A stretch of DNA of 64,000 nucleotides from Peptococcaceae bacterium (GCA_049366715.1 JBMNCQ010000055.1:168542-232541); one strand, 5' to 3'; counted from the stretch's first letter, positions 9,988-30,869 are shown. The notes: generated by a model from the letters alone, not told the origin. Program-made: numbers and translations.

Positions 9988-10015
9988 ACACTATTAACCC
10001 TTTCTTCATACCATA
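9988..10015 (+). promoter_or_regulatory. mother-cell sigma (sigmaK/E-type) promoter candidate for cotS-like gene
   Basis: AC-N17-CATACCATA, 37 nt upstream of ATG at 10052. Confidence 0.45.
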
Positions 10016-10051
10016 GAGTAAGGAGTCTTAGTAAGGGGGGAAACAATTTTT

Positions 10052-11086
10052 ATGGACCAAAGTATCATCAAAGACTATGTAGCTGATGCCTCCACCGTTT
10101 TGAAACAATATCCGATTCAAGCGCTTTTTATTAAAAAATATCAATATAAAAGCAAAAAAGCAGTTTGGTTTGTCAAAACAAACCAAGCTAATTATGCGTT
10201 AAAAAGATATTGGCTTGATGATAAGCAGTGGAATACGATAATTTCCGCTTATAATTATTTAAGTAAAGAAGTAAATAACGTGGCTCCTTTGTTATCTACT
10301 AAAGACGCTAACCTTTGGACTAAGTATAAAGATAATTATTATATTTTAACAAATTGGGTGAAAGGAAGTACTCCCGATTACACCAATAATGAGGATCTTA
10401 CTAAACTTACCCGGGGAATCGCCGAGCTCCATACGGCAGCTAGAAACTATCCGGCTGCAGATATGGAAAATGCCGATAAATACTTAGGGCGCTGGCCTTT
10501 AGATACCAGAAGAAAACAAGGATTACTGCTGGAATATAAATATGAAGCTGAAAATATCGGTACCCACAGCTTTGCTAAGTTATATCTGAAGCATTATCAA
10601 AGTTTCTTTGAAATTTATGAAGAGGTAGCGGAAGTTTTTGAACATCAGATCTATCAACAATGGGTAAAAAAAACAAAAGAGTACCCCTGTCTTTGTGTAA
10701 ACGGTTTCTCTCCCCATAATTTTTCGTTAGGAGAGAAAAATATCTTATGGCTTTTGCATTTAGATAATATTTGCTTAGACTTACCGGCCAGAGACATTAG
10801 AAAATTAATACTTAAGACCATGTATATCAAGGAAAAATGGTGCCCGGAAACTTTTGCCCTGATCATGAAAAACTATTTAAATATTTTTCCTCTGGCCAAG
10901 GATGAACTCAAAGTACTCCTGGCAGAATTGAAATCACCCCATCTCTTTTTTAATGTCACCACGAATTTTTTCCTGAATCAGAAAGCAAACAGGGAAGCGG
11001 ATTATTATAAAACACATCTCATTAAGACTTTAAAATTTGAACAGGGCAAATTAGACATATTATCTCGTTTCTGGCAACTCCTTTGA
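10052..11086 (+). CDS. cotS: CotS-family spore coat protein (kinase-like fold)
   Basis: 344 aa; phosphotransferase-like layout with LLHLDNICLDLPARDIRKL region; GGGGGG RBS; neighbours are coat-type glycosyltransferases, as in Bacillus cotSA-cotS. Confidence 0.7.
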   Translation: MDQSIIKDYVADASTVLKQYPIQALFIKKYQYKSKKAVWFVKTNQANYALKRYWLDDKQWNTIISAYNYLSKEVNNVAPLLSTKDANLWTKYKDNYYILTNWVKGSTPDYTNNEDLTKLTRGIAELHTAARNYPAADMENADKYLGRWPLDTRRKQGLLLEYKYEAENIGTHSFAKLYLKHYQSFFEIYEEVAEVFEHQIYQQWVKKTKEYPCLCVNGFSPHNFSLGEKNILWLLHLDNICLDLPARDIRKLILKTMYIKEKWCPETFALIMKNYLNIFPLAKDELKVLLAELKSPHLFFNVTTNFFLNQKANREADYYKTHLIKTLKFEQGKLDILSRFWQLL

Positions 11087-11133
11087 GCTTTTCCGCCTCG
11101 TATTCCGGATTTAAGGATTTTAAGAATCTAAGA

Positions 11134-11168
11134 AAAGGCATCTAACTTTTTAAGAGTTAGATGCCTTT
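11134..11168. terminator. bidirectional terminator between convergent cotS-like and P/Y-rich genes
   Basis: AAAGGCATCTAACT-TTTTAAG-AGTTAGATGCCTTT. Confidence 0.75.
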
Positions 11169-11178
11169 GGTTTAGCTG

Positions 11179-11436
11179 TCAACCCGGACACTGTGCTGCA
11201 TAAATTTCTTGCATCATTCTATACATATCCCTGACCATTCTTTGCACTTCCTGAGGCGGATAACCTGTTACAGGGCCCGGCGTGGGAGGCATAGGACCCG
11301 GGCAAGGATAATACGGATATTGCATGGGATACTGCATTTCCATCCCCGGATAATATGGGTATTCCATCCCCATATATGGATATTGCATTTCCGGGCCTTG
11401 GTATGGCATAGGATACTGAGGACACCCTCTATACAT
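11179..11436 (-). CDS. Pro/Tyr/Met-rich small protein, probable spore coat component
   Basis: 85 aa; YPMPYQGPEMQYPYMGMEYPYYPGMEMQYP...; C-terminal helix EVQRMVRDMYRMMQEIY shared with next gene; GGAGGG RBS. Confidence 0.6.
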   Translation of the reverse strand: MYRGCPQYPMPYQGPEMQYPYMGMEYPYYPGMEMQYPMQYPYYPCPGPMPPTPGPVTGYPPQEVQRMVRDMYRMMQEIYAAQCPG

Positions 11437-11492
11437 TCATCATCCCTCCTAAACTAATAATATTTATGATATTAGAATTCTTTTTCATCTCG

Positions 11493-11678
11493 CTATGCTT
11501 GCTCCTGCTCATAGATACACCTGATCATTTCATACATTTCCCCCAGAATTCTGTACATTTCTTCAAAAGTCATTTGCTGCGTAGGCATAGGCGTTGGCAT
11601 GGGCCCCTGATATGGCGGATTCCACGTATCACCCGGCAGGGGTTGAAACCCGGGCTGCATGAACTGTCTATAAAACAT
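11493..11678 (-). CDS. Pro-rich small protein, paralogous C-terminal helix
   Basis: 61 aa; ...PPYQGPMPTPMPTQQMTFEEMYRILGEMYEMIRCIYEQ; AAAGGAGGG RBS. Confidence 0.6.
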   Translation of the reverse strand: MFYRQFMQPGFQPLPGDTWNPPYQGPMPTPMPTQQMTFEEMYRILGEMYEMIRCIYEQEQA

Positions 11679-11709
11679 TAAGAAATCCCTCCTTTCTATT
11701 ACCTATTAA

Positions 11710-11737
11710 CATCATATGCATTTAAGGAATAATAAGT
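11710..11737 (-). promoter_or_regulatory. sigmaK/E-type promoter candidate
   Basis: Minus strand AC-N17-CATATGATG, 32 nt upstream of ATG at 11678. Confidence 0.35.
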
Positions 11738-11752
11738 TTTCAAAAACATTGA

Positions 11753-11917
11753 TTAATATGGAAAACCGCCGTATGGATAATATGGATACGGTGGATATGG
11801 ATAATAAAAGTACGGTGGTCCAGGTGTCAGCAATGAGAAAAAAAGCAGTGGAAACAATACGGTCCCCGGTCCTAGCTGTCTACTCATAGGATAACTTTCC
11901 AAATTATTCCTATACAC
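11753..11917 (-). CDS. Pro/Tyr-rich mini-protein (54 aa, GTG start), below ORF-track cutoff
   Basis: Hand translation: VYRNNLESYPMSRQLGPGTVLFPLLFFSLLTPGPPYFYYPYPPYPYYPYGGFPY*; AAAGGAGGG RBS about 8 nt upstream of GTG. Confidence 0.45.
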   Translation of the reverse strand: MYRNNLESYPMSRQLGPGTVLFPLLFFSLLTPGPPYFYYPYPPYPYYPYGGFPY

Positions 11918-12112
11918 AAGGAATCCCTCCTTTCTCCTGCTGCTAACATAATATGTTTCAGCAAATCAGAAAGAAGAAGACCATATCTTTTAAGATTATT
12001 TACTGATTATCTACGAAGGCTTCTTCTGAAAAATTCAGCCCTGCCCATTAATTAGCCGGACTTTCCTTATTTCTCCGACAAACCCGGTCTATCTAAGATT
12101 AGCGCCGGTTAC

Positions 12113-14059
12113 TCAATGCCCTTCCTTTTTTTGTACAAGGAGATAAGCTAATTGGTTCTTCTTCTTAAAAACGGCATAATAATACTTTTCTGCTAAAATC
12201 GTGAAATGCTCCTTATCCTTCCAGGAATTATCAGGGCCAAAATATTCCTCCCCCCCTTGCTTATATTTAGCAAAATTCAAACCATAATGAACCAAATCAT
12301 CATCGGGGAAATACTCCAGGGCAGATTCAAATAGCTCCAGTGCTTCGGTATATTTCCCCATTTTCAGCATCAGATCTCCTTTAACAAGATTTAAAGTAGG
12401 CGTTGAAGTACTAATCTGGGCTAAATATTGATGTACCAGAGGATTGTCGGTTTTCCAAAAAAAGATCACAGCAGCGCCTAAAGTTTCTAATTTGTTAATA
12501 CATAAACTAAAATCAATGATTTTTTCCGCCCAATCCAGTAAACCTATTTCAATAAATTCCTTTAGCAACGTCCAGCATTGATTTAAATACAGGGAAATAT
12601 CCTCGGCGCCCTTGAAATATCCATTAAGCAAATCCTGATAAACTTGGGCTGCAGATGACTCCAAAAATAATTTCAGGCTTTCTACGGACCTTACTAAAAG
12701 TAAGCTGTCATCTAATCCACAGGCGCAGAGAAAGATATTATTTAAAATCAGGCGGGGATTATTGATTAGATTGATATTCAATAACTCTTCCAGAGCCAGT
12801 GAAAAATAGCTATGATGTATGAAACAATAAGATTTAAAAAATTTCACAAAATCATGAGGTTCAAAATAGTTTAAGATCTCCAGACAGGCTGAATAATTAC
12901 TCCAGAAAGCATAAGTATCCGCAAGTCTGAAATAGTCCTGGACCGTAAAATCATATGTTAAGATGCCGGTAAATACGCTGCTTTTTTTAAAGGTAGCCAG
13001 GGGAACAATTGCCTCTATGGCCTGGTCTCTTATTTCCCGATAACCCAGGGCTTTGCCGTATATCGTTAACGACTCCTCAAATCTGCCCATTTTCTCAAAA
13101 GACTTTCCCATGCTTAATAAGGAATAATAGCTTCCTATCCCCAGTACAGAGGGAAATTTACCGGTTTCCCCCAGCTCCAGGCTTTTTTCATAATAGTTGC
13201 AGGCTTTCTCATATTTGCCCGTTGCGTCCGCTAAGTTACCATATAAATAATAAAGATCCGTATATTCCTTAAACCTTTCCAAACCGCGTTTAATAATCAG
13301 TTCACTTTTTTCATAATCATGTTCCTGCAAATAACTCAAAGCTAGATTGCGATAAACAACGGGCACGTAAGATTCGTCACCTGTAAGGTTAATTAAAGCT
13401 TCCTGGTAATAATTTATGGCTCTTTGATAGTCTCGGAGCAAATAAGATACATTTCCTGAATTGGCAAGTAAATAAGGATTTACAGGATCCTGCGCCAATT
13501 CTTTCCTTAAAATTCTTATCTTTCTGGAAAGTTTTTCAGTAATGTATTCCTCATGATAGCCAAAATGATTGATTACCTGATCGGAATTATAGATGCTGTC
13601 TGCCCTGGTTCTCCTGATACTTGGCAGGACTTGTTCGCAGACTTTACCGCTAAACCGATAATTTTTCCGATTTCTAAATAACCGCACAGCGCTTTCTTTT
13701 AACACATACCCATTCTCTAAAATATTGTTAATCTGCACATAATAACCTTCAGCCTGAGCATTATTCATAAGTTCCCGTATTTCATCCGCACTATTTTTCG
13801 TGAGTTCCTCATCGGCATCGATAACTAGAATCCAGTCACCTTGGGCTGCGTCCAGTGCAATGTTTCTCGCAAAACTAAAATCGTCACACCATAAAAGCTC
13901 AATAATTTTACACTTAAAGTTTTGGGCGATTTCCAGAGTGTTATCAAGGGAACCGCTATCAACCAGTACGATTTCATCAGCTATCTTTTTAATGCTTTTT
14001 AAACAGCGGAAAATATTATTTTCCTCATCTTTAGTGATCATACAGACACTTAGTTTCAC
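12113..14059 (-). CDS. family-2 glycosyltransferase fused to TPR repeats
   Basis: 648 aa; N-terminal MKLSVCMITKDEENNI...DSGSLDNT...DADE (GT2 DxD); long TPR-like C-terminal region. Confidence 0.8.
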   Translation of the reverse strand: MKLSVCMITKDEENNIFRCLKSIKKIADEIVLVDSGSLDNTLEIAQNFKCKIIELLWCDDFSFARNIALDAAQGDWILVIDADEELTKNSADEIRELMNNAQAEGYYVQINNILENGYVLKESAVRLFRNRKNYRFSGKVCEQVLPSIRRTRADSIYNSDQVINHFGYHEEYITEKLSRKIRILRKELAQDPVNPYLLANSGNVSYLLRDYQRAINYYQEALINLTGDESYVPVVYRNLALSYLQEHDYEKSELIIKRGLERFKEYTDLYYLYGNLADATGKYEKACNYYEKSLELGETGKFPSVLGIGSYYSLLSMGKSFEKMGRFEESLTIYGKALGYREIRDQAIEAIVPLATFKKSSVFTGILTYDFTVQDYFRLADTYAFWSNYSACLEILNYFEPHDFVKFFKSYCFIHHSYFSLALEELLNINLINNPRLILNNIFLCACGLDDSLLLVRSVESLKLFLESSAAQVYQDLLNGYFKGAEDISLYLNQCWTLLKEFIEIGLLDWAEKIIDFSLCINKLETLGAAVIFFWKTDNPLVHQYLAQISTSTPTLNLVKGDLMLKMGKYTEALELFESALEYFPDDDLVHYGLNFAKYKQGGEEYFGPDNSWKDKEHFTILAEKYYYAVFKKKNQLAYLLVQKKEGH

Positions 14060-14202: not shown

Positions 14203-14430
14203 TTAGATCTGCTCATGCTGCTTGCCGAGCAATTCTTCCAATCTTCCTACTCTCTCATTTAATTTTTTAACTTCGGCTAATATCTGCACTAAGACATCAT
14301 TTTTGATATTTTCCTTATATCGAGAGAAGGGCCAGCTTTCCTGCTGTTTATGTACCTTGGCTTTAACGTTGGCAGAGTTCTGCCGATCATATTTTTTTGT
14401 ATTCCAGACATTAGAAGTCATCTTCATCAC
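14203..14430 (-). CDS. hypothetical small protein (start probably 14421)
   Basis: 75-aa ORF upstream of the GT2-TPR gene; GAGGTG RBS favours third ATG (MTSNVW...). Confidence 0.4.
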   Translation of the reverse strand: MMKMTSNVWNTKKYDRQNSANVKAKVHKQQESWPFSRYKENIKNDVLVQILAEVKKLNERVGRLEELLGKQHEQI

Positions 14431-14603
14431 CTCATAATTATTATATGAACATTTCAGAAATTGGTTTAAATCTTCTTCCTCTCCGGCCCCGCAACTTCTC
14501 CGGATATAGGGCTGTCATAATAGCAGCGGGGCCTTATTGTCAAAACTGCGTTTTTGCAAAGCAGCAAAATTTCATTTTTTTAAGAAAATTTCTTACAGTA
14601 TTC

Positions 14604-14631
14604 ACGCTTAAGGCCTGTTTTTCATATCATG
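14604..14631 (+). promoter_or_regulatory. sigmaK/E-type promoter candidate
   Basis: AC-N17-CATATCATG, 54 nt upstream of ATG at 14685. Confidence 0.35.
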
Positions 14632-14684: not shown

Positions 14685-15380
14685 ATGGAAGACCAATACC
14701 GGCAAGAAGATCAAATCCAGCCCGGTCCCTGCCCTGTTGACTCTCAAACAGGCATACCAATATGTCCCCCGCCGACAGAAATAGATATAATCAAGGTCAA
14801 AAAAATATTTAATGAATGTATGCATACCCAGGTCGAGGAAATTACCATCGACTTCCCTGCCTCTACCCTGGAGCCTGTGACAGAAATGGCCCAGGAAGCC
14901 GAATGTATCTCAGTAGAAGTATTAAATTCTAATTGTATTATTCTGAACGGGGACGATATTGTAAGATTAACCTTTACCTTAGAGGTGACCAGCAGGGTTC
15001 CTCTGGATAGCGGAGGCTTTCAGCAAGAATCTGCGACCCTCACTGTCCAAAAAACTTTCTCCCTGGACAGAGCCAGTGATGACGGGATTGACGTCCAGTG
15101 CCATGTTTTTCCGTCCTGCCTGTTCTGCTTTATTTCCAGCAGAAATGAATTAGGAAACGTCTCTGAAGTGACCTGCTGTGTGGGCGTGCTGATTCTTCTC
15201 AAAGCAGAGGCTGAAGTGCAATTGTTAATTCCAACTTACGGATATCCGGCTCAACCGCCGGAGTGCGGAGAATTTCTCGGTGAATGCCCCACAGATTTTT
15301 CACCGGACTGGCCCCCTTATCCGCCGCAGTTACTTTTCAGTCAATCTACGGCCACAAGAGCCAGAAGAACAAAAAAATAA
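14685..15380 (+). CDS. Cys-rich conserved hypothetical protein, paralog of 21810..22526
   Basis: 231 aa; about 60% identical by eye to the 21810 product (QPGPCP...GIPxCPPPTEIDIIKV.K.FNECMHTQV ... CCVGVLILLK..AEVQLLIPTYGYP..PPEC.EFLGECPTDF.PDWPPYPPQLLF); GAAGGAGG RBS. Confidence 0.75.
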   Translation: MEDQYRQEDQIQPGPCPVDSQTGIPICPPPTEIDIIKVKKIFNECMHTQVEEITIDFPASTLEPVTEMAQEAECISVEVLNSNCIILNGDDIVRLTFTLEVTSRVPLDSGGFQQESATLTVQKTFSLDRASDDGIDVQCHVFPSCLFCFISSRNELGNVSEVTCCVGVLILLKAEAEVQLLIPTYGYPAQPPECGEFLGECPTDFSPDWPPYPPQLLFSQSTATRARRTKK

Positions 15381-15416: not shown

Positions 15417-15660
15417 AATGCTTCATTGCAAGAAATCCGGGAATTGGACTTAAATCAAAAAAGCCTGCCTATTTTCATCTGCAGTAACTTCATGACCGGA
15501 TCATTCCTTCCTAAAGAAATCCTGTCCGGATCCTGCTCCTAATAATAACCTTTTAGATTGTTAATTCTTAAAACTGCCGAACACTAATTAAGCTCAAATC
15601 ATATGATAGTACTGCATATACCAAAATTAACGCGGGACTTATCATAAGGGGGAATAAAGC

Positions 15661-16278: not shown

Positions 16279-17412
16279 TCACGTATTATTTGCTTCAATA
16301 ATATCTTGAAAATAGCGTTTTAACTCCAGAGCTACTCTTTTCCAGGTAAAATGCTGAGTTGACAGCCGGCGGGAATTAGCGGCTAAGCTTTTTAGGAGGC
16401 TTTCATTGCGCAAAAGATTGATGATGGTATTTGCAAATTCTTGCGGGTCCTGATAGTCATTTACGATAACACCATTATAACCGTCTTTGATGACCTCCGC
16501 ATTGCCCCCTTTAGGTGTTGTAATGATCGGCAGGCCGGCCGCCATTGCTTCATAGTGGACCCGTCCTAAAGGTTCTTCCCATTGGCAGGGATTAGCAAAA
16601 ATATCGGCGATAGCATAAAAACGATGAATTTCGTTAGGGGAAATGTTTTTAAAAAGCAGTAATTTCTCCCGGGGAAAGTTCACTGCTTTATCCAGCACCT
16701 TTAGATAACCGGCTTCATCGATGAACCTGCTGTTTCCGACCAAAACCAGACTGCTTTTCGGAAAAAACTTAAGCACTTCCGGTAAAGCCTGCACCAAAAG
16801 ATGCAGTCCCTTCTCCTTTGTCAATCTTCCGACCCCAAGTATGATCTTCTCATCCTTCAAATTCAGACTTGCTCTTATTTCCGCAGCTTTTTCATTCCGG
16901 GGATAAAATTGCTCGGTGTCAACTCCTTCATAAATATGCCTGACCTTATTGATACCTGCCGGAAATATGTTAATTATTTTATCGGTGAGATATTTACTGA
17001 CCGTTACGATCCCGTCATATAATGGAAATAACTCTTTTAACTCTTCTTTTGTCCAGCCCTCTTCAAGAAAATCACTATGCACACTTAAGGTCACTGCCGT
17101 ATTCTTGCAATGCTTGCGCAGCTCTGTTGCCGCACCGGGTCTGTTAAAAATATGAATTAAGTCATAATCTTTTTCCTGCAGCCGATTTAAGACATTTTCA
17201 TAATAAGTGCCCCAAGACTCTCCGGGTATTCTATAAATCTCCCAGTTTTCACCGGCGGTTTTAAAAGGCAGCGTCCTCTCAGCGGAAGAAAAAATACTCA
17301 GACGGACCAGTTTCGGCAAATGTCCCAATATACCTGTTAAATAGGTCTGAATTGCTCCTCCTTTGATGTTGGGCACCGGGAGCTTTTCAGTACTGATCAT
17401 TGCGATCCGCAT
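16279..17412 (-). CDS. GT4-family glycosyltransferase (CotSA-like)
   Basis: Start moved to MRIAMISTEKL (AAGGAG 9 nt upstream); C-terminal EPLGRVHYEAMAAGLPIITT (E-x7-E GT4 motif). Confidence 0.8.
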   Translation of the reverse strand: MRIAMISTEKLPVPNIKGGAIQTYLTGILGHLPKLVRLSIFSSAERTLPFKTAGENWEIYRIPGESWGTYYENVLNRLQEKDYDLIHIFNRPGAATELRKHCKNTAVTLSVHSDFLEEGWTKEELKELFPLYDGIVTVSKYLTDKIINIFPAGINKVRHIYEGVDTEQFYPRNEKAAEIRASLNLKDEKIILGVGRLTKEKGLHLLVQALPEVLKFFPKSSLVLVGNSRFIDEAGYLKVLDKAVNFPREKLLLFKNISPNEIHRFYAIADIFANPCQWEEPLGRVHYEAMAAGLPIITTPKGGNAEVIKDGYNGVIVNDYQDPQEFANTIINLLRNESLLKSLAANSRRLSTQHFTWKRVALELKRYFQDIIEANNT

Positions 17413-17490: not shown

Positions 17491-17733
17491 CTAAGCACCG
17501 CTGATTTTTATTAAATCCCTTAACACCTTGGCCTCTTCCTCAATATCTAATAGAATCAGTTCTTCCCTGTCATAACTCCTAATATCCACTAATAATGAAT
17601 TATAAATTTCAATATAAATTGTATAGCAATCTTCATTAATTACGGCCGGGAAAACAAAAATTTCCGGAATATCAAGAATTTCTTCTACCAGATAAGCAAG
17701 TTCTCTAATCTTAGTTATTAGTGTTTCATACAT
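17491..17733 (-). CDS. hypothetical acidic small protein (80 aa)
   Basis: ORF with GGGGAG RBS, upstream of the GT4 gene in the same direction. Confidence 0.45.
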   Translation of the reverse strand: MYETLITKIRELAYLVEEILDIPEIFVFPAVINEDCYTIYIEIYNSLLVDIRSYDREELILLDIEEEAKVLRDLIKISGA

Positions 17734-17801: not shown

Positions 17802-17829
17802 TAACATATGACCCGTCAGTATTTAATGT
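17802..17829 (-). promoter_or_regulatory. sigmaK/E-type promoter candidate
   Basis: Minus strand AC-N17-CATATGTTA, 69 nt upstream of ATG at 17733. Confidence 0.4.
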
Positions 17830-19376: not shown

Positions 19377-19390
19377 TTTGGTACGCTCCT

Positions 19391-21723: not shown

Positions 21724-21751
21724 ACCATTTTACACTTCTTTTCATAGGATA
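21724..21751 (+). promoter_or_regulatory. sigmaK/E-type promoter candidate
   Basis: AC-N17-CATAGGATA, 59 nt upstream of ATG at 21810. Confidence 0.45.
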
Positions 21752-23218: not shown

Positions 23219-23349
23219 CGATTCAGGTAATTTCATTAATCACCTGCTTACCTGTCACTAGTCCCTGATTACTATAATCTATATTTTATATAACGCAAAG
23301 TATCAGATGGGAACCAAAAAACCGCTAACCACCAGTATGTATACCACCT

Positions 23350-23386
23350 AAAAGCTTGTTGACGGAATACCTGTCAACAAGCTTTT
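23350..23386. terminator. bidirectional terminator
   Basis: AAAAGCTTGTTGAC-GGAATACCT-GTCAACAAGCTTTT. Confidence 0.8.
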
Positions 23387-23401
23387 AAGGTTAGCTCTTG
23401 C

Positions 23402-24184: not shown

Positions 24185-24396
24185 AAATATTACCGTCTTT
24201 CATAATTTTAGCCCCTGAAAATAAAGATAGTGCCGGGGACAACTTAACCTTTGCAGCACGTTGTTTCATTCTAAAGCATTAAAAGTTTCTTGACAACGTT
24301 TATATCGGCTCCCTATATGTATTATATCTCTAGTATCGGGGGCATACTTCTAAAATCCCCCCGCCTTTTAAAGTATCGCCTCCCATCCTATTATTG

Positions 24397-25926
24397 CTAG
24401 ATCCTTCTTCGAAAAGGAAATTGAGGATATGGTTTCCGGCTTTTCATTTCTAATTCTTTAAGGTTTTTCACAAGTGCTTTGTTTTCATCTTCTTTTTCCA
24501 TAAATTTATTTCTCAGCTGATTATTTGTGGCTTTTACTACCTCCAGGCTCTGCCTCAGCTTCAGAACTTCTTCCGTTAAATTTTGCAGTTTCTCAACTTC
24601 CTGTTGCAGCTGTTTTTTTTGGTCCTGCTCCTTTTGCAGAGCCTGCTGCAAATTGTCAATTTCCAGAGCCTGTAAAGCTTCCTTTTCTTGCAGAACATTA
24701 ACCTGGTGCGTTTTTTTACTATTTTCCTCTTCCAGCCTGCTTATTAAGCTATTTAGCCCGGCAATTTTTTCTTCCCGGGACCTGTCATTAACCCTATTCC
24801 TTGCAGAAGATTGCCCGAAATTTTTATAATATTTGATCACTTTCCGCCTTTCCCGGCTTAATGGCGGGTTGACTTCCTCCCCGGACTGCTGACCGGCAGC
24901 ATCCTTCAGCAATAAGAATACCGCCGTACTATCCGGCTCTAGCGCCGCTAAATCAATCCCCGGATATTGATCAATATCCAAAGCTAACCGTTTAGCAAAA
25001 TATTTTACCGGCATGAATTGTGTTGTTAACTGCCGGGCGGCCGCGTACTTGTGGATATACTCATTCTCCTGCCAGAAAATTTCTATTTCCGCACCGTTCA
25101 GATAAATAAGAGGTGATAAAGAGACACCTTCTTTAGATGATATGCACTGTTCTTTGAGCCAGCCGGAATTAAGCCAGACTCCTTTCGTTTTGAACTTCCG
25201 GGTATACATGACTCTGGCATTCATATGCTCCAGCCGCAGCCAGGTGATATGCAGATTACCCTCTTGGTCAAAGAGGGCCGCAGGATTAATATTGATACCT
25301 TGTGAAGATGTTATGACACTTTTTAAGCCCCACTGGCTCTCTTTACCCATCCGGTAAACTAACTGGTACTTTCCTTTCTGATAAATCTGGTAGATGAGAT
25401 AAAGGACATCTCCCTGCGTAACGGCAGCACACCCTCCCGGTCCGTTTCCCCAGCCTTTATCAATAACAAAAGAGTCCTGCCACAGCCCATCTCTTTTAAA
25501 ACAGCACCGGATCTTCCACTCTTTCGTCTGGAAATTTTCCGTAATAATGATTACATACATCTTGTCCCCACTAAAACCTATTTTTTGAAAAGTAATCTTA
25601 TCCCTTTTTTCCAGCCCGATATTAATTATTTCAGGAGAATCTTCGCCCAAAGAATGACATATGATCTGCTCCAGATGATTTTTATAACTAATATAGAAAT
25701 GATTAGCAGGACTTACCCCCATCGTAAATAAACCTGAAAAATCTTTTCTTAGCTCCCGGAAACGGCTTTCTCCAGGATAATAAATATAAAAAGAACCGTC
25801 CTCCACCTTTAGTGTCCATTCTTGCCCGAGTCCTATAATCTCCAGTTGATTAGAGCCAAAAAGACCGTAATTTTCCTCCATTTCAGCACCACCTAAATAA
25901 TTAAACTCCCATTGTATCTTATTCAA
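24397..25926 (-). CDS. hypothetical 509-aa protein: beta-rich N-terminal region plus about 130-aa C-terminal coiled coil
   Basis: C-terminus LQEKEALQALEIDNLQQALQKEQDQKKQLQQEVEKLQNLTEEVLKLRQSLE...; no enzymatic motif. Confidence 0.6.
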   Translation of the reverse strand: MNKIQWEFNYLGGAEMEENYGLFGSNQLEIIGLGQEWTLKVEDGSFYIYYPGESRFRELRKDFSGLFTMGVSPANHFYISYKNHLEQIICHSLGEDSPEIINIGLEKRDKITFQKIGFSGDKMYVIIITENFQTKEWKIRCCFKRDGLWQDSFVIDKGWGNGPGGCAAVTQGDVLYLIYQIYQKGKYQLVYRMGKESQWGLKSVITSSQGININPAALFDQEGNLHITWLRLEHMNARVMYTRKFKTKGVWLNSGWLKEQCISSKEGVSLSPLIYLNGAEIEIFWQENEYIHKYAAARQLTTQFMPVKYFAKRLALDIDQYPGIDLAALEPDSTAVFLLLKDAAGQQSGEEVNPPLSRERRKVIKYYKNFGQSSARNRVNDRSREEKIAGLNSLISRLEEENSKKTHQVNVLQEKEALQALEIDNLQQALQKEQDQKKQLQQEVEKLQNLTEEVLKLRQSLEVVKATNNQLRNKFMEKEDENKALVKNLKELEMKSRKPYPQFPFRRRI

Positions 25927-25976: not shown

Positions 25977-26003
25977 ACAAAAAAAAGCGATTCCCATAAG
26001 ATA
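25977..26003 (+). promoter_or_regulatory. sigmaK/E-type promoter candidate
   Basis: AC-N16-CATAAGATA, 42 nt upstream of ATG at 26045. Confidence 0.45.
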
Positions 26004-26044: not shown

Positions 26045-26194
26045 ATGGCAGAAGCTGTAGGTCAATATGGATATGGATATGGATGTAATGCATTTTGTAA
26101 TGAATTTTTCTTTGAAACATTATTAATGATTATCATTATTATGTGGTTGTTAAAATGGCTCTTTGGATTTGGTTTTGACGGAGCTTACTGTTAG
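26045..26194 (+). CDS. tiny membrane protein, family A (49 aa)
   Basis: MAEAVGQYGYGYGCNAFCNEFFFETLLMIIIIMWLLKWLFGFGFDGAYC; AAAGGAGG RBS; the track ORF 26006..26194 is an N-terminal over-extension. Confidence 0.75.
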   Translation: MAEAVGQYGYGYGCNAFCNEFFFETLLMIIIIMWLLKWLFGFGFDGAYC

Positions 26195-26373: not shown

Positions 26374-26847
26374 ATGCCGCAAGATAGAAATAAAGATCCT
26401 AAAAACATGAGAGGCTTTGACCCCAATACAATTTACTCCCTGTTTGATTCCTTCAACAACTTGAGTAATGCCTTTAAACAACTAAACTTACCCAATATGA
26501 CTAAATTCCTTTATTTTAACCCCCCTAATCCTGCTCATAAGCCTAAAGGAGGTAAAAAATATTTTAAGCCTGCTAAGCCCACTAAACCTGCAAAACCCGG
26601 CAAACCACAAAAACCTCTGAACTTTAACGGTTTTTTGAAAGCCTTTTCCGATGGTTTAAATGCCTTAAATTTTTCGAATCCTTTTAGGCTAAAGAGACAA
26701 CCAGGTTCTTTTCCCCGTTCATCCAGAAGAATCATTGTCAAAAGGACCTTTCTGTCTAATCAATTAATTGTTGTAAAACCGCCGGGGTATACAGAAAAAG
26801 ACACTCCGGAGGAAATCATAACGGAGGAAACCATAACCGAGGAATAA
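26374..26847 (+). CDS. Lys/Pro-rich low-complexity protein (157 aa)
   Basis: Start set at MPQDRNK (AAAGGAGGG 9 nt upstream); HKPKGGKKYFKPAKPTKPAKPGKPQKP tract. Confidence 0.55.
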   Translation: MPQDRNKDPKNMRGFDPNTIYSLFDSFNNLSNAFKQLNLPNMTKFLYFNPPNPAHKPKGGKKYFKPAKPTKPAKPGKPQKPLNFNGFLKAFSDGLNALNFSNPFRLKRQPGSFPRSSRRIIVKRTFLSNQLIVVKPPGYTEKDTPEEIITEETITEE

Positions 26848-26984: not shown

Positions 26985-27335
26985 TTATTCTTCCTCCACT
27001 TTTGCCATTTCTGCTTCCGCTATTTCTTCAACTACCTCGGCTATCTCTTCTGCTGCCTCATCCATAGGTTCTACCTGTGCTTCCGGCTGATACCCCTTTT
27101 TACTTTTTTCTGCCGGTCTTACCGGTTTTCTAGGTGCAAAAATACCTGCTATTTTACTGCTTCCTTTGGCGACTATTTCTATCTGAGGTGCGAAATTTTC
27201 TATAGAGCTTAAAAGTTGATCAAAGTTATCAGCGAACATCCTTAAATTATTTGTTACTCCCTTTAGATTAGAGACAGTCCTAAGCAAGGGCTTTGTTCTA
27301 CTGAGATTTTCATAACCTTTGCCATACTGTGACAT
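26985..27335 (-). CDS. hypothetical protein with FAD-x2-D-x-LL-x-S-x-E motif and acidic tail (116 aa)
   Basis: AAAGGAGG RBS; motif region SNLKGVTNNLRMFADNFDQLLSSIENFAPQIEIV aligns with the 28125 product; 28 nt downstream of 27364..27777. Confidence 0.6.
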   Translation of the reverse strand: MSQYGKGYENLSRTKPLLRTVSNLKGVTNNLRMFADNFDQLLSSIENFAPQIEIVAKGSSKIAGIFAPRKPVRPAEKSKKGYQPEAQVEPMDEAAEEIAEVVEEIAEAEMAKVEEE

Positions 27336-27363: not shown

Positions 27364-27777
27364 TCAATCATAACTGAATAACCATTTTAAAAGCCAAAAA
27401 ATAATAATTTGCATGAAAAGCGCTTCAAAAAAGCAATTATTGTTACATACCCTTTCCGGAAATGCTTCATAACCTACAGCTTCATCTTCTTCCTCCAGGG
27501 TTACCGGATGATTAACTTCAACATTTTCAGCCGGTGGTAAATGAGCTCCTAAACCATAGGCTTTCACCGGTTTTTGAGGCGGAAATACATTTTTCAGAAT
27601 TCCCTTTGTTACTCCTGTAAGAAGACTTTGCCCGGACCTGGGAGTTTTGGGGAATTCTTTGCTGCTATTAACAGGATTCTTCTGCATTTCTTGCTTTGCT
27701 ATGTTTATTTTTTCCCGGGGCTTTTTATCTTGTAAACTGTTGTGCTTTTGATTCCCATAAGTATCTAACTCAGCCAT
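27364..27777 (-). CDS. 137-aa protein whose C-terminus is a family-A tiny-TM module (fusion form)
   Basis: C-terminal CNNNCFFEALFMQIIIFWLLKWLFSYD* matches stand-alone family A peptides; TAGGAGGGG RBS. Confidence 0.7.
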   Translation of the reverse strand: MAELDTYGNQKHNSLQDKKPREKINIAKQEMQKNPVNSSKEFPKTPRSGQSLLTGVTKGILKNVFPPQKPVKAYGLGAHLPPAENVEVNHPVTLEEEDEAVGYEAFPERVCNNNCFFEALFMQIIIFWLLKWLFSYD

Positions 27778-27813: not shown

Positions 27814-27841
27814 TATAATATGTAGAACATTAAGTACTTGT
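27814..27841 (-). promoter_or_regulatory. sigmaK/E-type promoter candidate
   Basis: Minus strand AC-N17-CATATTATA, 37 nt upstream of ATG at 27777. Confidence 0.45.
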
Positions 27842-28066: not shown

Positions 28067-28094
28067 ACATTTTATGAATTAATTCCATAAAATA
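28067..28094 (+). promoter_or_regulatory. sigmaK/E-type promoter candidate
   Basis: AC-N17-CATAAAATA, 31 nt upstream of ATG at 28125. Confidence 0.45.
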
Positions 28095-28124: not shown

Positions 28125-28712
28125 ATGCCCCGCTACAGAAAAATAACACCTGTAAATATTAATGAGCAAGAACGAATTCTAAGTGAAAAGTTCAATCAGA
28201 ATAGACCTAAGTACAAAAAAACAGTAAGGAGAACCCAGAGACCTAATGAAAATCCTTTATTACCTTTATACCAATTAAAAACCAAACTACAACGTTCTTT
28301 TGAAAATAGAAGCACCCAGGAAGTCGTCTTTGATACTTGTAAAAGTTTAAGAGGGATCTGCGGTCAAGTCCGGTCTTTTGCCGATGAAGTTGATAACCTC
28401 CTAGGTTCGGTAGAATCCATTGTTCCGGTTATGGAAACAGTAGTATCCAGCTATGCCCGTTCTTTAAAAAATAAAGAGCAGCCCATTTTAGAGAAAGATA
28501 AAATCCCTGCGGAGGAAACAAACAAGGCCAAAGAAGACCAAAGTACTGATAACGAAAATCCAATCCGGGAAAATACAGCTGATAAAACTTCCAAAATGCC
28601 TGCCAAAATGCCGTCGGAAATGGAAATCAAAGAGTTCCTGAACAATCCCCTGGTGGCAAGTTTACTACAAAATTTAACGCAAAAGATGATGACAAATAAA
28701 CAGCAGCAGTGA
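28125..28712 (+). CDS. hypothetical 195-aa protein sharing the FAD-x2-D-x-LL-x-S-x-E motif
   Basis: KSLRGICGQVRSFADEVDNLLGSVESIVPVMETV (14/34 identical to the 26985 product by eye); GAAGGAG RBS. Confidence 0.6.
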   Translation: MPRYRKITPVNINEQERILSEKFNQNRPKYKKTVRRTQRPNENPLLPLYQLKTKLQRSFENRSTQEVVFDTCKSLRGICGQVRSFADEVDNLLGSVESIVPVMETVVSSYARSLKNKEQPILEKDKIPAEETNKAKEDQSTDNENPIRENTADKTSKMPAKMPSEMEIKEFLNNPLVASLLQNLTQKMMTNKQQQ

Positions 28713-28866: not shown

Positions 28867-29067
28867 TTAAAAGGGTAATCCTAATTTGCTTATTAATTTT
28901 TGTGTTAATTCTTCCATTTGCTCCTTGCTTTTTATTCCACCGGCAGCTTCGATTTCTGCGATCACCTCATTTATCACCTTTCTTTTGTCTTCAGGTAAAA
29001 ACATTTCGAATTGAGCAACAATTGCTTTTAACTCCTCAATGCTTTGCGGCATTTGAAATTGATTCAT
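28867..29067 (-). CDS. hypothetical helical small protein (66 aa)
   Basis: ORF 16 nt downstream of 29084..29503; GGGAGG RBS. Confidence 0.5.
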   Translation of the reverse strand: MNQFQMPQSIEELKAIVAQFEMFLPEDKRKVINEVIAEIEAAGGIKSKEQMEELTQKLISKLGLPF

Positions 29068-29083: not shown

Positions 29084-29503
29084 TTATTTTATTGTCCTGC
29101 TGTATATAGGAGTATAGGTCTTTTCCTCCCGTAAAGAATTATCTACTCTTCTGGAATACAATACCGTATGCTTTGTTTCAGGTTGAGGGGCTTTTGCCTT
29201 TTTGGTTCTTTTCGGTTCCATAACCCGGGAATATAATACACTATGATTCTCTTTAGGGTCTTCGGCAATTGCTTCAATAACTTTCCTTTCCGGCAGATCT
29301 TCTTCCTTCCCAATCGTTCTGTTAAATAATACTTTTATTTCGTCAGATGTGATCGTATCTTTAACCTCTTCCTCCTCTTTGGATCTTACCGTTCCCCACG
29401 GCCTTAAAAATCCGCTGCCCTGGCTAAAGAATGCCAAAAATACAACAGCTATTAACAGAAAAATACTAAAAGATTTGTTTTCATTATCATAAAGACCAAA
29501 CAT
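29084..29503 (-). CDS. N-terminally anchored protein with three (V/I)(L/P)YSR repeats (139 aa)
   Basis: TM helix FSIFLLIAVVFLAFF; HSVLYSRVMEP..., HTVLYSRRVDN..., YTPIYSRTIK*; AAAGGAGGGAG RBS. Confidence 0.55.
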   Translation of the reverse strand: MFGLYDNENKSFSIFLLIAVVFLAFFSQGSGFLRPWGTVRSKEEEEVKDTITSDEIKVLFNRTIGKEEDLPERKVIEAIAEDPKENHSVLYSRVMEPKRTKKAKAPQPETKHTVLYSRRVDNSLREEKTYTPIYSRTIK

Positions 29504-29564: not shown

Positions 29565-29591
29565 CATTTTATGCGCAAAAAAATTAAGTGT
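29565..29591 (-). promoter_or_regulatory. sigmaK/E-type promoter candidate
   Basis: Minus strand AC-N16-CATAAAATG, 62 nt upstream of ATG at 29503. Confidence 0.35.
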
Positions 29592-29706: not shown

Positions 29707-29734
29707 ACCTTTATGATTTGCCCCTCATAAAATA
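29707..29734 (+). promoter_or_regulatory. sigmaK/E-type promoter candidate
   Basis: AC-N17-CATAAAATA, 32 nt upstream of ATG at 29766. Confidence 0.45.
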
Positions 29735-29765: not shown

Positions 29766-29876
29766 ATGAATACCAACTGGCATAATCTCAACATGTATTT
29801 TTTTGAAACGATCCTGATGGTCATAATTATCTTTTGGCTTTTACGCTGGTTATTCAGCAGCAATTACACAGCCTGA
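29766..29876 (+). CDS. tiny membrane protein, family A (36 aa)
   Basis: MNTNWHNLNMYFFETILMVIIIFWLLRWLFSSNYTA; CAAGGAGG RBS; the track ORF 29682..29876 is over-extended. Confidence 0.7.
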   Translation: MNTNWHNLNMYFFETILMVIIIFWLLRWLFSSNYTA

Positions 29877-30009: not shown

Positions 30010-30036
30010 ACAGTTTAGAGAGTACTTCATAAGATA
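30010..30036 (+). promoter_or_regulatory. sigmaK/E-type promoter candidate
   Basis: AC-N16-CATAAGATA, 47 nt upstream of ATG at 30083. Confidence 0.45.
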
Positions 30037-30082
30037 TTACTGTAAACGATAACTATTACGCTCATGAAAGGAGGATTTTTAC

Positions 30083-30229
30083 ATGGCTGATAAAACTGCT
30101 AGCCAATTTGGTTTCTTTGGTGGGGAGTGTTTCTTTAACGAATGCTTCTTCGAAACTCTTTTAATGATAATCATAATTTACTGGCTTTTAAGGTGGTTAT
30201 TTGGTTTTAACTACTATGGTGCTGTTTAA
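30083..30229 (+). CDS. tiny membrane protein, family A (48 aa); not in ORF track
   Basis: MADKTASQFGFFGGECFFNECFFETLLMIIIIYWLLRWLFGFNYYGAV; AAAGGAGG RBS. Confidence 0.8.
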   Translation: MADKTASQFGFFGGECFFNECFFETLLMIIIIYWLLRWLFGFNYYGAV

Positions 30230-30286
30230 AAATTAAGCCGAGCACAAATGTCCCGGGAAAATATGTTCTTGAAAGGGGGCCTTTAC

Positions 30287-30406
30287 ATGGCAGACGGGTA
30301 CGGAAGTTGCTTTTTTAACGAATGTTTCTTTGAAACATTATTAATGATTATTATTATCTACTGGCTCTTAAGGTGGTTATTCGGCTTTAACGGCTTTGGT
30401 GTTTAA
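30287..30406 (+). CDS. tiny membrane protein, family A (39 aa); not in ORF track
   Basis: MADGYGSCFFNECFFETLLMIIIIYWLLRWLFGFNGFGV; AAAGGGGG RBS. Over the 26 shared codons it differs from the 30083 copy at 11 codons, all synonymous. Confidence 0.8.
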   Translation: MADGYGSCFFNECFFETLLMIIIIYWLLRWLFGFNGFGV

Positions 30407-30419
30407 GGCTTCTCAGATA

Positions 30420-30455
30420 AAGGGTAAAGATGGATTCCACCTTTACCCTTTTATT
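30420..30455 (+). terminator. rho-independent terminator
   Basis: AAGGGTAAAG-ATGGATTCCAC-CTTTACCCTT-TTATT. Confidence 0.7.
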
Positions 30456-30516
30456 AACTGGCAAATTCAAATTTTTAGGAAGTGAAATTTTACATAAGAG
30501 GGGGTTTTGATTAATA

Positions 30517-30645
30517 ATGACTGAAGAAAGCAGACAATACGGATATGGCGGCTTTCCTTTCGGGGGCTACTGGTGGATTTGGATAATAATAGGTGTATTA
30601 TTTTTCTTATTCTTCTTTGGCGGATGCGGCTTTGGTCCCTGCTAA
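30517..30645 (+). CDS. tiny membrane protein, family B-like / YjcZ-like (42 aa); not in ORF track
   Basis: MTEESRQYGYGGFPFGGYWWIWIIIGVLFFLFFFGGCGFGPC; AGAGGGGG RBS. Confidence 0.65.
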   Translation: MTEESRQYGYGGFPFGGYWWIWIIIGVLFFLFFFGGCGFGPC

Positions 30646-30685
30646 AATTTTTTTATCTAATATTAAAAATGAGAGGAGAATCATC

Positions 30686-30802
30686 ATGGCTGATAATGTT
30701 GCCGGTCAATTTGGTTTTGGCTACGGTTACCAATGGCTGGTTTGGGTGGCTATAATCGCCTTGGTCATTTACTTATTCGCATTTCCTTGCTGTGGAATAT
30801 AA
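30686..30802 (+). CDS. tiny membrane protein, family B / YjcZ-like (38 aa)
   Basis: MADNVAGQFGFGYGYQWLVWVAIIALVIYLFAFPCCGI; GAGAGGAG RBS; the track ORF 30593..30802 is over-extended. Confidence 0.75.
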   Translation: MADNVAGQFGFGYGYQWLVWVAIIALVIYLFAFPCCGI

Positions 30803-30834
30803 AAAAAAGGGCAGATAATACTGCCCTTTTTTTA
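30803..30834 (+). terminator. rho-independent terminator
   Basis: AAAAGGGCAG-ATAATA-CTGCCCTTTT-TTT. Confidence 0.85.
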
Positions 30835-30841
30835 TACATTA

Positions 30842-30869
30842 ACCGTTTATTAAAAAATATCATAGTATA
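30842..30869 (+). promoter_or_regulatory. sigmaK/E-type promoter candidate
   Basis: AC-N17-CATAGTATA, 44 nt upstream of ATG at 30913. Confidence 0.45.

What the first reader, a model, noticed from the sequence alone, without database searches (positions are those of the whole stretch)
9988..30869. Recurrent AC-N16/17-CATAnnnT(A/G) motif upstream of at least 12 coat-like genes (mother-cell sigmaK/E regulon signature)
The motif lies 31-69 nt upstream of each start codon, on the correct strand, at these positions:
- 9988 (cotS-like)
- 11710
- 14604 and 21724 (both Cys-rich paralogs)
- 17802
- 25977
- 27814
- 28067
- 29565
- 29707
- 30010
- 30842

The B. subtilis sigmaK consensus is AC-16/17 bp-CATAnnnTA, and B. 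subtilis cotS is sigmaK-dependent. Finding the motif in front of the cotS homolog and the orphan genes ties the orphans to late mother-cell expression.

Caveat: I looked only where I expected promoters. By rough estimate the motif should occur by chance a handful of times in 128 kb of AT-rich sequence.
Basis: partly seen in the sequence, partly recalled or inferred. Interest (0 to 1): 0.6.

Follow-up and report, generated by a model that had tools for sequence, protein, structure and literature searches.

The report
SigmaK-type promoters, spore-surface gene island
A 21-kb stretch of an uncultured spore-forming Clostridia genome holds at least 14 independent late-sporulation (sigmaK-type) promoters, the densest such cluster in the genome, which marks about 25 mostly unknown genes as likely spore-surface components; the type of regulation is ordinary, the genes are new.

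Summary
All 12 listed motifs exist, and two more promoter-like copies were missed (14439-14465 minus, 15581-15608 plus).

- **Density:** 9.9-31.3 kb holds 18 exact matches against 2.3 expected. It is the densest 20-kb stretch of the 4.15-Mb genome (17 matches; the next best elsewhere has 7).
- **Independence:** the 14 promoter regions share no sequence beyond the motif.
- **Genome-wide placement:** matches favour the sense side of gene starts (61 against 25 antisense). This holds only for -35 AC and a 16/17-nt spacer.
- **Marker genes:** exact matches also precede sigK, dpaA, yabG and ytaF.
- **Sigma factors:** the genome's sigmaK carries the Arg that reads the -35 C, and its sigmaE carries Gln.
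- **Relatives:** in genomes of other genera, orthologs of motif-bearing genes keep the motif (16 of 22). Orthologs of motif-less island genes lack it (0 of 17).

SigmaK is therefore the best reading, and the sigmaE half is not supported.

This is a new member of a known promoter class. Its value is in annotating an orphan spore-surface island conserved across an uncultured family. The scan has reported similar sigmaK-type clusters in other genomes.

The parts
9988..10015 (+). SigmaK-type promoter P1 (ACACTATTAACCCTTTCTTCATACCATA), 36 nt before the cotS-like gene
   Evidence: Exact match. The -35 AACAC and -10 CATACCATAGAGTA are conserved in 4 of 4 orthologous loci from other genera, while the flanks cannot be aligned.
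10052..11086 (+). CotS-family spore coat kinase-like protein, 344 aa
   Evidence: NCBIfam TIGR02906 spore_CotS, 193.5 bits against a cut-off of 172.7.
11710..11737 (-). SigmaK-type promoter P2. It drives the Pro/Tyr/Met-rich mini-proteins 11678..11493 (61 aa) and probably 11436..11179 (85 aa).
   Evidence: Exact match. The ortholog in G005 keeps the motif at -61. The second gene has no promoter of its own, here or in the relative.
14439..14465 (-). It lies ahead of the 72-aa ORF 14421..14203, and the GT2-TPR glycosyltransferase 14059..12113 may be read through from it.
   Evidence: Exact match. GT2 plus TPR domains by Pfam. GT2-TPR has only a one-mismatch site at 14090-14117.
14604..14631 (+). 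SigmaK-type promoter P4, ahead of Cys-rich paralog A (14685..15380, 231 aa)
   Evidence: Exact match. See P7 for conservation in the family.
15581..15608 (+).
   Evidence: Exact match. The one weak ortholog found (32% identity, G007) has no exact match.
17802..17829 (-). SigmaK-type promoter P6, ahead of the 80-aa ORF 17733..17491 and the GT4 glycosyltransferase 17412..16279
   Evidence: Exact match. GT4 by Pfam Glycos_transf_1, 1.7e-36. GT4 has no promoter match of its own.
17864..21565 (-). Housekeeping insert without the motif: ABC permease, ATPase, binding protein and a UbiA/MenA-type prenyltransferase. It serves as an internal negative control.
   Evidence: Best PWM scores upstream are 4.2 and 5.5, within the background range.
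21724..21751 (+). SigmaK-type promoter P7, ahead of Cys-rich paralog B (21810..22526, 238 aa)
   Evidence: Exact match. 17 of 20 upstream regions of family members, in 8 genera of the family and one further family, hold the exact motif (at -78 to -88 upstream of the closest orthologs, -55 to -98 over all). The other 3 keep a perfect -10 with a one-base-changed -35. Information content peaks at AC and the -10, while the spacer carries 0-0.6 bit.
25977..26003 (+). SigmaK-type promoter P8, ahead of the tiny hydrophobic protein 26045..26194 (49 aa) and 26374..26847
   Evidence: Exact match. Orthologs in G007 and G001 keep the motif at -70 and -72.
27814..27841 (-). SigmaK-type promoter P9, ahead of 27777..27364 (137 aa) and 27335..26985 (116 aa)
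   Evidence: Exact match. The second gene lacks its own motif here and in relatives, 0 of 3.
28067..28094 (+). SigmaK-type promoter P10, ahead of 28125..28712 (195 aa)
   Evidence: Exact match. The ortholog in G001 keeps the motif at -83.
29565..29591 (-). SigmaK-type promoter P11, ahead of 29503..29084 (139 aa) and 29067..28867 (66 aa)
   Evidence: Exact match. The ortholog in G001 keeps the motif.
29707..29734 (+). SigmaK-type promoter P12, ahead of the tiny hydrophobic protein 29766..29876 (36 aa)
   Evidence: Exact match. An RBS (GGAGG) and ATG lie 31 nt downstream.
30010..30036 (+). SigmaK-type promoter P13, ahead of the tiny hydrophobic proteins 30083..30229 and 30248..30406
   Evidence: Exact match; context.
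30842..30869 (+). SigmaK-type promoter P14. It follows a terminator (30806-30830) and precedes three tandem 40-42-aa Gly/Tyr-rich membrane mini-protein genes (30913, 31122, 31355).
   Evidence: Exact match; sequence and ORFs.
22814..25926 (.). Island genes without an exact motif: 134-aa orphan (+), CAP-domain protein 24160..23402 (-) and the 509-aa coiled-coil protein 25926..24397 (-)
   Evidence: No exact match. Orthologs in relatives also lack it: CAP 0 of 1, 509-aa protein 0 of 5. They presumably use another promoter type.

Best explanation
Window 9988-31477 is a spore-surface (coat or outer-layer) gene island. The genome is an uncultured spore-forming Clostridia MAG, Peptococcales-like by the names of its relatives' records. 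The island is organised as about 14 short transcription units, each headed by its own sigmaK-type promoter: -35 (A/C)AC, a 16-17-nt spacer, and -10 CATAnnATA.

Inferred mechanism: late in sporulation, pro-sigmaK is processed in the mother cell. RNA polymerase carrying sigmaK reads the -35 C through the region-4.2 arginine, and reads the CATA-type -10. It starts transcription a few nucleotides downstream, giving leaders of roughly 20-60 nt ahead of strong GGAGG ribosome-binding sites.

The products are a CotS-family kinase, two glycosyltransferases, two Cys-rich all-beta paralogs, Pro/Tyr-rich mini-proteins, and families of tiny hydrophobic or Gly/Tyr-rich peptides. Under this reading they are made together in the mother cell and deposited on the developing spore.

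Shown here: the motif, its enrichment, its placement, its conservation, the sigma genes, and the marker genes that carry the motif. Inferred: recognition by sigmaK, the timing, and the spore-surface destination of the orphan products.
For: 1. **Density.** There are 18 exact matches in 21.4 kb against 2.3 expected. This is the top 20-kb bin of the genome, with 17 against a mean of 2.0 and a next-best of 7 elsewhere (P = 8e-11). Shuffles give 6.2 per window against 24 observed.

2. **Placement.**
- Genome-wide, 61 intergenic matches lie 10-150 nt upstream of a same-strand start, against 25 in the antisense arrangement.
- Scrambled -10 controls give 12-21. Other -35 dinucleotides with the true -10 give 9-68, but none shows the sense-over-antisense excess.
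- Other spacers give 15-33.
- Among all 16 possible -35 dinucleotides, only AC shows a strong sense excess. CA, one base offset from it, shows a weak one (47 against 33).
- Distances to the start codon peak at 30-60 nt.

3. **Positions not used in the search are also conserved.** A is at -10 position 7 in 13 of 14 sites, and A or C precedes AC in 14 of 14.

4. **Independence.** The 14 promoter regions show no mutual BLAST similarity, and their spacers are 34% identical.

5. **Regulon markers.** Exact matches precede the following:
- sigK (TIGR02846, over the cut-off)
- dpaA (TIGR02853, 328 against 319.65 bits)
- yabG (TIGR02855, 374 against 270.4)
- ytaF (TIGR02840)
- a LysM L,D-transpeptidase
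- a SodC-like protein
- an alanine racemase

dpaA, a yabG-like gene and sigK P2 are sigmaK-dependent in C. difficile (PMC3789822). ykuD and yjcZ are in the B. subtilis sigmaK regulon (PMC517825).

6. **Sigma specificity.** Own sigmaK has GISRSYISR and own sigmaE has GISQSYISR. This matches the reported Arg/Gln determinant for -35 C against T (PMC3789822).

7. **Phylogenetic footprint.**
- The cotS promoter is conserved in 4 of 4 genera.
- The Cys-rich family has the exact motif in 17 of 20 upstream regions.
- Orthologs of motif-bearing genes keep the motif in 16 of 22 cases, and orthologs of motif-less genes in 0 of 17 (Fisher P = 2e-6).

8. **Sigma-70-type sites** are not enriched in the island: 59 against 51 +/- 6.8.
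Against:
- Most of the 454 genome-wide matches are chance. Total counts equal those of scrambled controls, so any single site could be a false positive.
- SigmaE and sigmaK share their -10, so dual recognition cannot be excluded. A SipL/SPOCS-LysM protein, whose C. difficile and B. subtilis counterparts are sigmaE-dependent (from my own knowledge, not checked here), also carries two matches.
- The genome is 85% complete, and spoIVA and spoIIIAA were not found.
- Several island genes lack the motif: the CAP protein, the 509-aa protein and the first two tandem Gly/Tyr-rich mini-protein genes (30517, 30686).
- Only the CotS homolog has independent evidence of being a coat protein.
Confidence: 0.85

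Rival explanations
1. The promoters are read by sigmaE, the early mother-cell sigma, or by both sigmaE and sigmaK. The island would then be expressed from engulfment onwards rather than only late.
For: SigmaE and sigmaK share very similar -10 elements (PMC3789822). sigK itself, which has the motif, is first transcribed by sigmaE in B. subtilis and C. difficile. A SPOCS-LysM (SipL-like) gene carries two matches.
Against: - The -35 is AC, not ATA.
- AT and AA at the -35 position show no sense enrichment (56 against 72, and 68 against 66).
- Own sigmaE carries Gln, not Arg, at the specificity position.
- spoIIID and spoIID have no exact match upstream.
- dpaA and yabG, which are late genes, do have one.
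Confidence: 0.08
2. The motif is the binding site of another regulator or an alternative sigma factor, such as one of the other sigma-70-family paralogs seen in the genome. It would only resemble the sigmaK consensus.
For: Several further sigma-like genes exist. No experiment ties the motif to sigmaK in this lineage.
Against: - The two-block structure, the fixed 16/17-nt spacing and the 30-60-nt distance to start codons are those of a promoter.
- The sequence equals the experimentally defined sigmaK consensus of both Bacilli and Clostridia.
- It precedes sigK, dpaA and yabG.
Confidence: 0.04
3. The clustering is a by-product of AT-rich intergenic composition, or of duplicated DNA in which paralogous genes were copied together with their upstream regions.
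For: The island is rich in short genes and so in intergenic DNA, and several gene families are paralogous (Cys-rich pair, tiny peptides).
Against: - Scrambled controls of the same composition give 0-7 matches in the island, against 18 (difference between the 'all' and 'excluding cluster' counts).
- The 14 regions show no pairwise similarity.
- Presence and absence are conserved gene by gene across genera.
- The motif heads at least 9 unrelated gene families.
Confidence: 0.02

Closest known systems
SigmaK-dependent promoters of Bacillus subtilis (41 mapped promoters; regulon of 103 genes in 63 transcription units; Eichenberger et al. 2004, PMC517825)
   Same: - The same two-block consensus: -35 AC and -10 CATAnnnTA.
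- Many short transcription units for coat and spore-surface genes, glycosyltransferases and tiny proteins (yjcZ).
- ykuD, and from established knowledge cotS, spoVF (dpaA) and yabG, belong to that regulon. Their homologs carry the motif here.
   Different: - The organism is an uncultured Clostridia lineage.
- Apart from CotS, dpaA, yabG, ytaF and the L,D-transpeptidase, the driven genes have no B. subtilis homologs.
- No clear GerE ortholog was found, so the sigmaK-GerE feed-forward step may be absent.
- 14 promoters are packed into 21 kb.
SigmaK-dependent promoters of Clostridioides difficile (24 mapped start sites; Saujet et al. 2013, PMC3789822)
   Same: - -35 AC for sigmaK against ATA for sigmaE, with a shared -10.
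- Arg in sigmaK against Gln in sigmaE in region 4.2.
- dpaA, a yabG-like gene, sigK P2, bclA genes and coat genes under sigmaK.
   Different: - Here sigK appears uninterrupted: one 245-aa open frame, so no skin-like insertion.
- It keeps an N-terminal pro-sequence like that of B. subtilis (comparison from memory).
- The driven coat genes are unrelated to the C. difficile cot and cde genes.
B. subtilis cotSA-cotS-ytxO and cge/sps spore-surface loci
   Same: A CotS-family kinase and a GT4 glycosyltransferase (CotSA is GT4) lie in one sigmaK-controlled neighbourhood. Glycosyltransferases are mixed with small structural proteins.
   Different: The gene order, operon structure and partner genes differ. 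Here cotS is monocistronic with its own promoter, and the GT4 lies 5 kb away behind an 80-aa orphan.

Membership tests
SigmaK-dependent promoter class | -35 AC and -10 CATAnnnTA separated by 16-17 nt | tested here: met
   14 promoter-like exact matches. A is at -10 position 7 in 13 of 14 sites, and A or C precedes AC in 14 of 14.
SigmaK-dependent promoter class | Located upstream of genes, in sense orientation, more often than chance | tested here: met
   61 sense against 25 antisense. Scrambled -10 controls give 12-21. The excess is seen only for the 16/17-nt spacer (other spacers 15-33) and, among all -35 dinucleotides, strongly only for AC. In the island, 11 of 26 called genes carry it against 50 of 3708 elsewhere.
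SigmaK-dependent promoter class | A sigK gene is present whose region 4.2 carries the Arg that specifies the -35 C, while sigmaE has Gln | tested here: met
   sigK matches TIGR02846 at 314.6 bits against a cut-off of 298.65, with no internal stops. The sequence is GISRSYISR in sigmaK and GISQSYISR in sigmaE. The determinant is as quoted in PMC3789822. Which residue of the 9-mer is the determinant rests on my memory of the B. subtilis sequences.
SigmaK-dependent promoter class | Precedes orthologs of experimentally sigmaK-dependent genes | tested here: met
   sigK, dpaA, yabG, a YkuD-type L,D-transpeptidase and the CotS-family gene (PMC3789822, PMC517825).
SigmaK-dependent promoter class | The transcription start lies a few nucleotides downstream of the -10, and expression depends on sigK and occurs late in the mother cell | not testable with these tools
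CotS family spore coat protein (10052-11086) | Scores above the curated cut-off of TIGR02906 | tested here: met
   193.5 bits against 172.7, aligned over model positions 1-313 of 314. It does not reach the CotI equivalog cut-off (165.9 against 550).
SipL/SpoVID SPOCS-domain proteins (a source's name for homologs of the Cys-rich paralogs) | Match to Pfam PF12673, or a profile match to a bona fide SPOCS protein | tested here: not met
   - No Pfam hit at E <= 1 for either paralog or for two named homologs.
- hhalign of the 40-sequence profile against the genome's own 3x SPOCS-LysM protein gives probability 0.1%.
- The AF2 model (pLDDT 82.6) has no PDB match; the best TM-score is 0.25.
YjcZ-like tiny sporulation proteins (a first-reader label for the tandem 38-42-aa genes) | Match to a curated family model | tested here: not met
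   No NCBIfam or Pfam hit at E <= 0.1 for any of the five peptides tested. The resemblance is one of size, composition and regulation only.

The most novel reading that the evidence does not exclude
The island encodes the main building blocks of a so far undescribed spore outer layer, shared by an uncultured family of anaerobic Clostridia with relatives in Desulforudis, Syntrophothermus and Syntrophomonadaceae. It would be assembled from a Cys-rich all-beta protein family with no solved structural relative, Pro/Tyr-rich mini-proteins, and several families of 36-52-aa hydrophobic peptides. All of these would be co-expressed from sigmaK promoters and possibly modified by the co-located CotS-type kinase and two glycosyltransferases.
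Probability: 0.45. Interest if true: 0.55.

Novelty: new member of a known kind. Interest (0 to 1): 0.35.

Why it matters
The promoter class itself is textbook. What it offers here is a cheap and fairly specific functional handle on genes that no database can name.

- It ties about 25 orphan genes, in at least 9 unrelated families, to late mother-cell expression.
- It defines a conserved spore-surface island in a family known only from metagenomes (deep-subsurface and anaerobic habitats, judging by the names of the relatives' records).
- It shows that the AC/CATA code, and its Arg/Gln sigma determinant, hold in this lineage.

This gives a starting list for spore proteomics or heterologous expression. 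It also gives a rule (motif plus conservation across genera) for predicting sigmaK regulons in uncultured spore formers.

Tried and rejected
- **Canonical sigmaE genes as a contrast set.**
  - spoIIIAA and spoIVA were not found in this 85%-complete genome.
  - spoIIID and spoIID upstream regions have no exact match.
  - I could not define a clean sigmaE motif from two genes.
- **GerE.** The only small LuxR-type ORF (C4:325183-325305, 31 bits) is a weak match with no motif upstream. It was not called GerE.
- **Whole-genome totals in three relatives.** Counts equal the reversed-pattern control. Totals are uninformative, because the signal lies in placement.
- **SPOCS identity of the Cys-rich paralogs.** Pfam, hhalign and a PDB fold search were all negative.
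- **Family assignment of the small proteins.** No Pfam or NCBIfam hits.
- **PWM search for weaker promoters ahead of the remaining island genes.**
  - Only 22770-22796(+), ahead of the 134-aa ORF, scores high (12.2, about the 98th percentile). It lies only 17 nt from the annotated ATG.
  - The CAP and 509-aa genes have nothing.
- **Leader hairpin of the Cys-rich genes.** It forms, but is no more stable than shuffled sequence (z -0.1 to -1.6).
- **Caveat on gene calls.** My gene caller is a home-made dicodon model. It misses several tiny island genes, so the genome-wide promoter counts are conservative.

Full report
**Context**

The window is G000:C55:168542-232541 of a 4.15-Mb assembly in 108 contigs. 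The assembly has 41.7% G+C, 85% completeness and 4.8% contamination.

Relatives found through one island protein are all uncultured. Their record names are Clostridiaceae bacterium BRH_c20a, Peptococcaceae bacterium BICA1-8, a Peptococcales bacterium, and Clostridia or Bacillota MAGs.

The genome carries the following sporulation genes:
- an uninterrupted sigK, and the sigE and sigG genes next to each other
- spoIIID and spoIID
- dpaA, yabG and ytaF

spoIVA and spoIIIAA were not found, which in an 85%-complete genome does not show absence.

**1. The observation**

An exact two-strand scan finds 24 matches to AC-N16/17-CATAnnnT(A/G) in the window. The gap from the motif's end to the start codon is 30-68 nt.

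Two more promoter-like copies were missed:
- 14439-14465(-), ahead of a 72-aa ORF
- 15581-15608(+), ahead of a 202-aa ORF

Four other matches in the region are not credible promoters:
- 27449(+) lies antisense inside an ORF.
- 30907-30933(-) and 31116-31142(-) are simply the reverse complement of the conserved gene start ATGGCTGATAATGTTGCCGGT.
- 29955-29981(-) points at no gene.

**2. More than chance**

| Test | Observed | Expected or control |
|---|---|---|
| Matches in the window | 24 | 6.2 (dinucleotide shuffles) |
| Matches in 9.9-31.3 kb | 18 | 2.3 (genome rate: 454 matches, 0.109 per kb) |
| Matches in the best 20-kb bin | 17 | genome mean 2.0, sd 1.8; best bin elsewhere 7 |

The Poisson probability for 18 against 2.3 is 8e-11. 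Over all 20-kb bins of the genome, the four best all lie in this region.

Sigma-70-type sites are not enriched in the same stretch: 59 against 51 +/- 6.8.

**3. It behaves as a promoter class genome-wide**

I built a home-made dicodon gene caller (3734 genes, 83% coverage). With it, 61 matches are intergenic and lie 10-150 nt upstream of a same-strand start, against 25 in the mirror arrangement (binomial P = 1e-4).

- Scrambled -10 controls give 12-21 sense hits. Other -35 dinucleotides with the true -10 give 9-68, without a sense-over-antisense excess.
- Spacers of 12-15 or 18-21 nt give 15-33.
- Among all 16 possible -35 dinucleotides, only AC has a strong sense excess. CA, one base offset from it, has a weak one (47 against 33).
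- Distances to the start codon peak at 30-60 nt.
- Total counts are not above the controls, here or in three relatives. About 85% of genome-wide matches are therefore chance, and the signal is positional.

**4. The 14 island sites are independent, and more alike than the search required**

They show no pairwise BLAST similarity, and their spacers are 34% identical. Positions the pattern left free are nevertheless conserved. A occupies -10 position 7 in 13 of 14 sites, giving CATAnnATA, and A or C precedes AC in 14 of 14.

The 14 sites head at least 9 unrelated gene families. Genes directly downstream of a headed gene have no site of their own: the 85-aa, GT4, 157-aa, 116-aa and 66-aa genes. 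This fits short operons.

The ABC-transporter/menA block in the middle of the island has none, nor do the flanking GntR, STAS and gerA genes. These act as internal negative controls.

**5. Which sigma**

Saujet et al. 2013 state that in C. difficile, as in B. subtilis, sigmaE and sigmaK share very similar -10 elements and differ at -35: ATA for sigmaE, AC for sigmaK. They add that a Gln in sigmaE against an Arg in sigmaK in region 4.2 sets this specificity (PMC3789822).

- **Own sigma factors.** In this genome sigmaK reads GISRSYISR and sigmaE reads GISQSYISR.
- **Marker genes.** Exact matches precede sigK itself, dpaA, yabG, ytaF, a LysM L,D-transpeptidase of the YkuD type, a SodC-like protein and an alanine racemase. 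Of these, dpaA, the yabG-like gene and sigK P2 are sigmaK-dependent in C. difficile (PMC3789822), and ykuD is in the B. subtilis sigmaK regulon (PMC517825).
- **SigmaE genes.** spoIIID and spoIID, which are sigmaE genes in B. subtilis, have no exact match.

I therefore read the sites as sigmaK promoters. Dual use by sigmaE cannot be excluded without experiments.

**6. Conservation**

The cotS-like promoter (AACAC...CATACCATAGAGTA) is conserved in 4 of 4 orthologous loci from other genera, and the flanks do not align.

For the Cys-rich family, 17 of 20 upstream regions hold the exact motif (at -78 to -88 upstream of the closest orthologs, -55 to -98 over all). These come from 8 genera of the family and one further family. 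The other three keep a perfect -10 with a one-base change in the -35. Column information peaks at AC and the -10 and drops to 0-0.6 bit in the spacer.

Across nine fetched loci of relatives:
- Orthologs of genes that carry the motif here carry it there in 16 of 22 cases.
- Orthologs of island genes that lack it here (GT2-TPR, CAP, the 509-aa protein, and the 116-aa, 66-aa and 85-aa proteins) lack it in 17 of 17 cases.
- Fisher's test gives P = 2e-6. Kin are not independent, so this P is only indicative.

The island itself is syntenic in relatives: cotS-like, Cys-rich pair, CAP, 509-aa protein, tiny peptides and GT2-TPR.

**7. What the genes are**

| Gene or group | Result |
|---|---|
| 10052-11086 | CotS-family member (TIGR02906 above the cut-off) |
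| 12113-14059 | GT2 glycosyltransferase with TPR repeats |
| 16279-17412 | GT4 glycosyltransferase |
| 23402-24160 | CAP-domain protein |
| All other island products | No Pfam or NCBIfam hit |

The Cys-rich paralogs belong to a family of 51 proteins. They occur only in uncultured Clostridia and in Desulforudis, Syntrophothermus and Syntrophomonadaceae records. One source calls two of them 'SipL SPOCS domain-containing'. I could not confirm this:
- Pfam gives no hit.
- hhalign against the genome's own SPOCS-LysM protein gives 0.1% probability.
- A confident AF2 model (pLDDT 82.6; six long strands) has no PDB relative, with TM-score at most 0.25.

'Coat-like' is thus demonstrated for one gene and inferred for the rest.

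**8. Verdict**

It remains untested experimentally.

This is a new member of a known kind. The same scan has already reported sigmaK-type promoter clusters ahead of spore-surface genes in other Clostridia genomes.

The modest added value is twofold. This is the densest cluster in the genome. And it labels a family-conserved island of orphan genes as a candidate spore outer-layer module.

Noticed in passing
window 21752-21809; L018, L021, L022, L023, L026, L030, L033 leaders: The 5' leaders of the Cys-rich genes in most relatives hold a short inverted repeat, (A/T)(A/T)AGGA-N3-7-TCCT(A/T)(A/T). It lies about 15-35 nt after the -10, and its flanking bases change in a paired way (TTAGGA/TCCTAA, TAAGGA/TCCTTA, AAAGGA/TCCTTT). 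The RNA hairpin is weak (z -0.1 to -1.6), so it could instead be a dimeric regulator site or an SD-like mRNA-stabilising element.
   Followed up: partly
window 29955-30036: Two exact motif matches lie back to back: 29955-29981 on the minus strand and 30010-30036 on the plus strand. The minus-strand one faces the 3' end of the tiny gene 29766-29876 and has no ORF of its own. It is either chance or an antisense promoter.
   Followed up: no
G000:C37:44278 (own genome, outside the window): An exact motif lies 69 nt ahead of a 473-aa protein. The protein has a long run of collagen-like GxT triplets (GATGAAGVTGATG...), partly masked by N, which recalls BclA-type exosporium glycoproteins. Sugar-modifying genes close by (C37:113599, 115190) also carry the motif.
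   Followed up: no
G000:C59:112845 and G000:C65:147235 (own genome): Further paralogs of island families lie elsewhere in the genome: a Met/Pro/Tyr-rich 65-aa mini-protein and a third Cys-rich paralog. Each has its own exact sigmaK-type motif.
   Followed up: partly
G000:C33:14159-14860: sigK is one open frame with no intervening element. It keeps an N-terminal pro-sequence (MSFELIGNLATSFIRTLLLLISY/LTNDSFPQPL), like B. subtilis pro-sigmaK. Its own upstream region has an exact AC/CATA match, which suggests autoregulation.
   Followed up: partly
window 17864-21565: An ABC transporter (permease, ATPase, binding protein) plus a UbiA/MenA-type prenyltransferase operon without sporulation promoters lies between the two Cys-rich paralogs. 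In relatives the two Cys-rich genes are adjacent (for example G003:C117 and G007:C8), so the block looks inserted, or the pair split, in this genome.
   Followed up: partly
window 30517-31477: There are five tandem 38-42-aa Gly/Tyr-rich membrane mini-protein genes. Only the last three follow the exact motif at 30842. The first two (30517, 30686) sit behind a terminator with no recognisable sigmaK-type site.
   Followed up: partly
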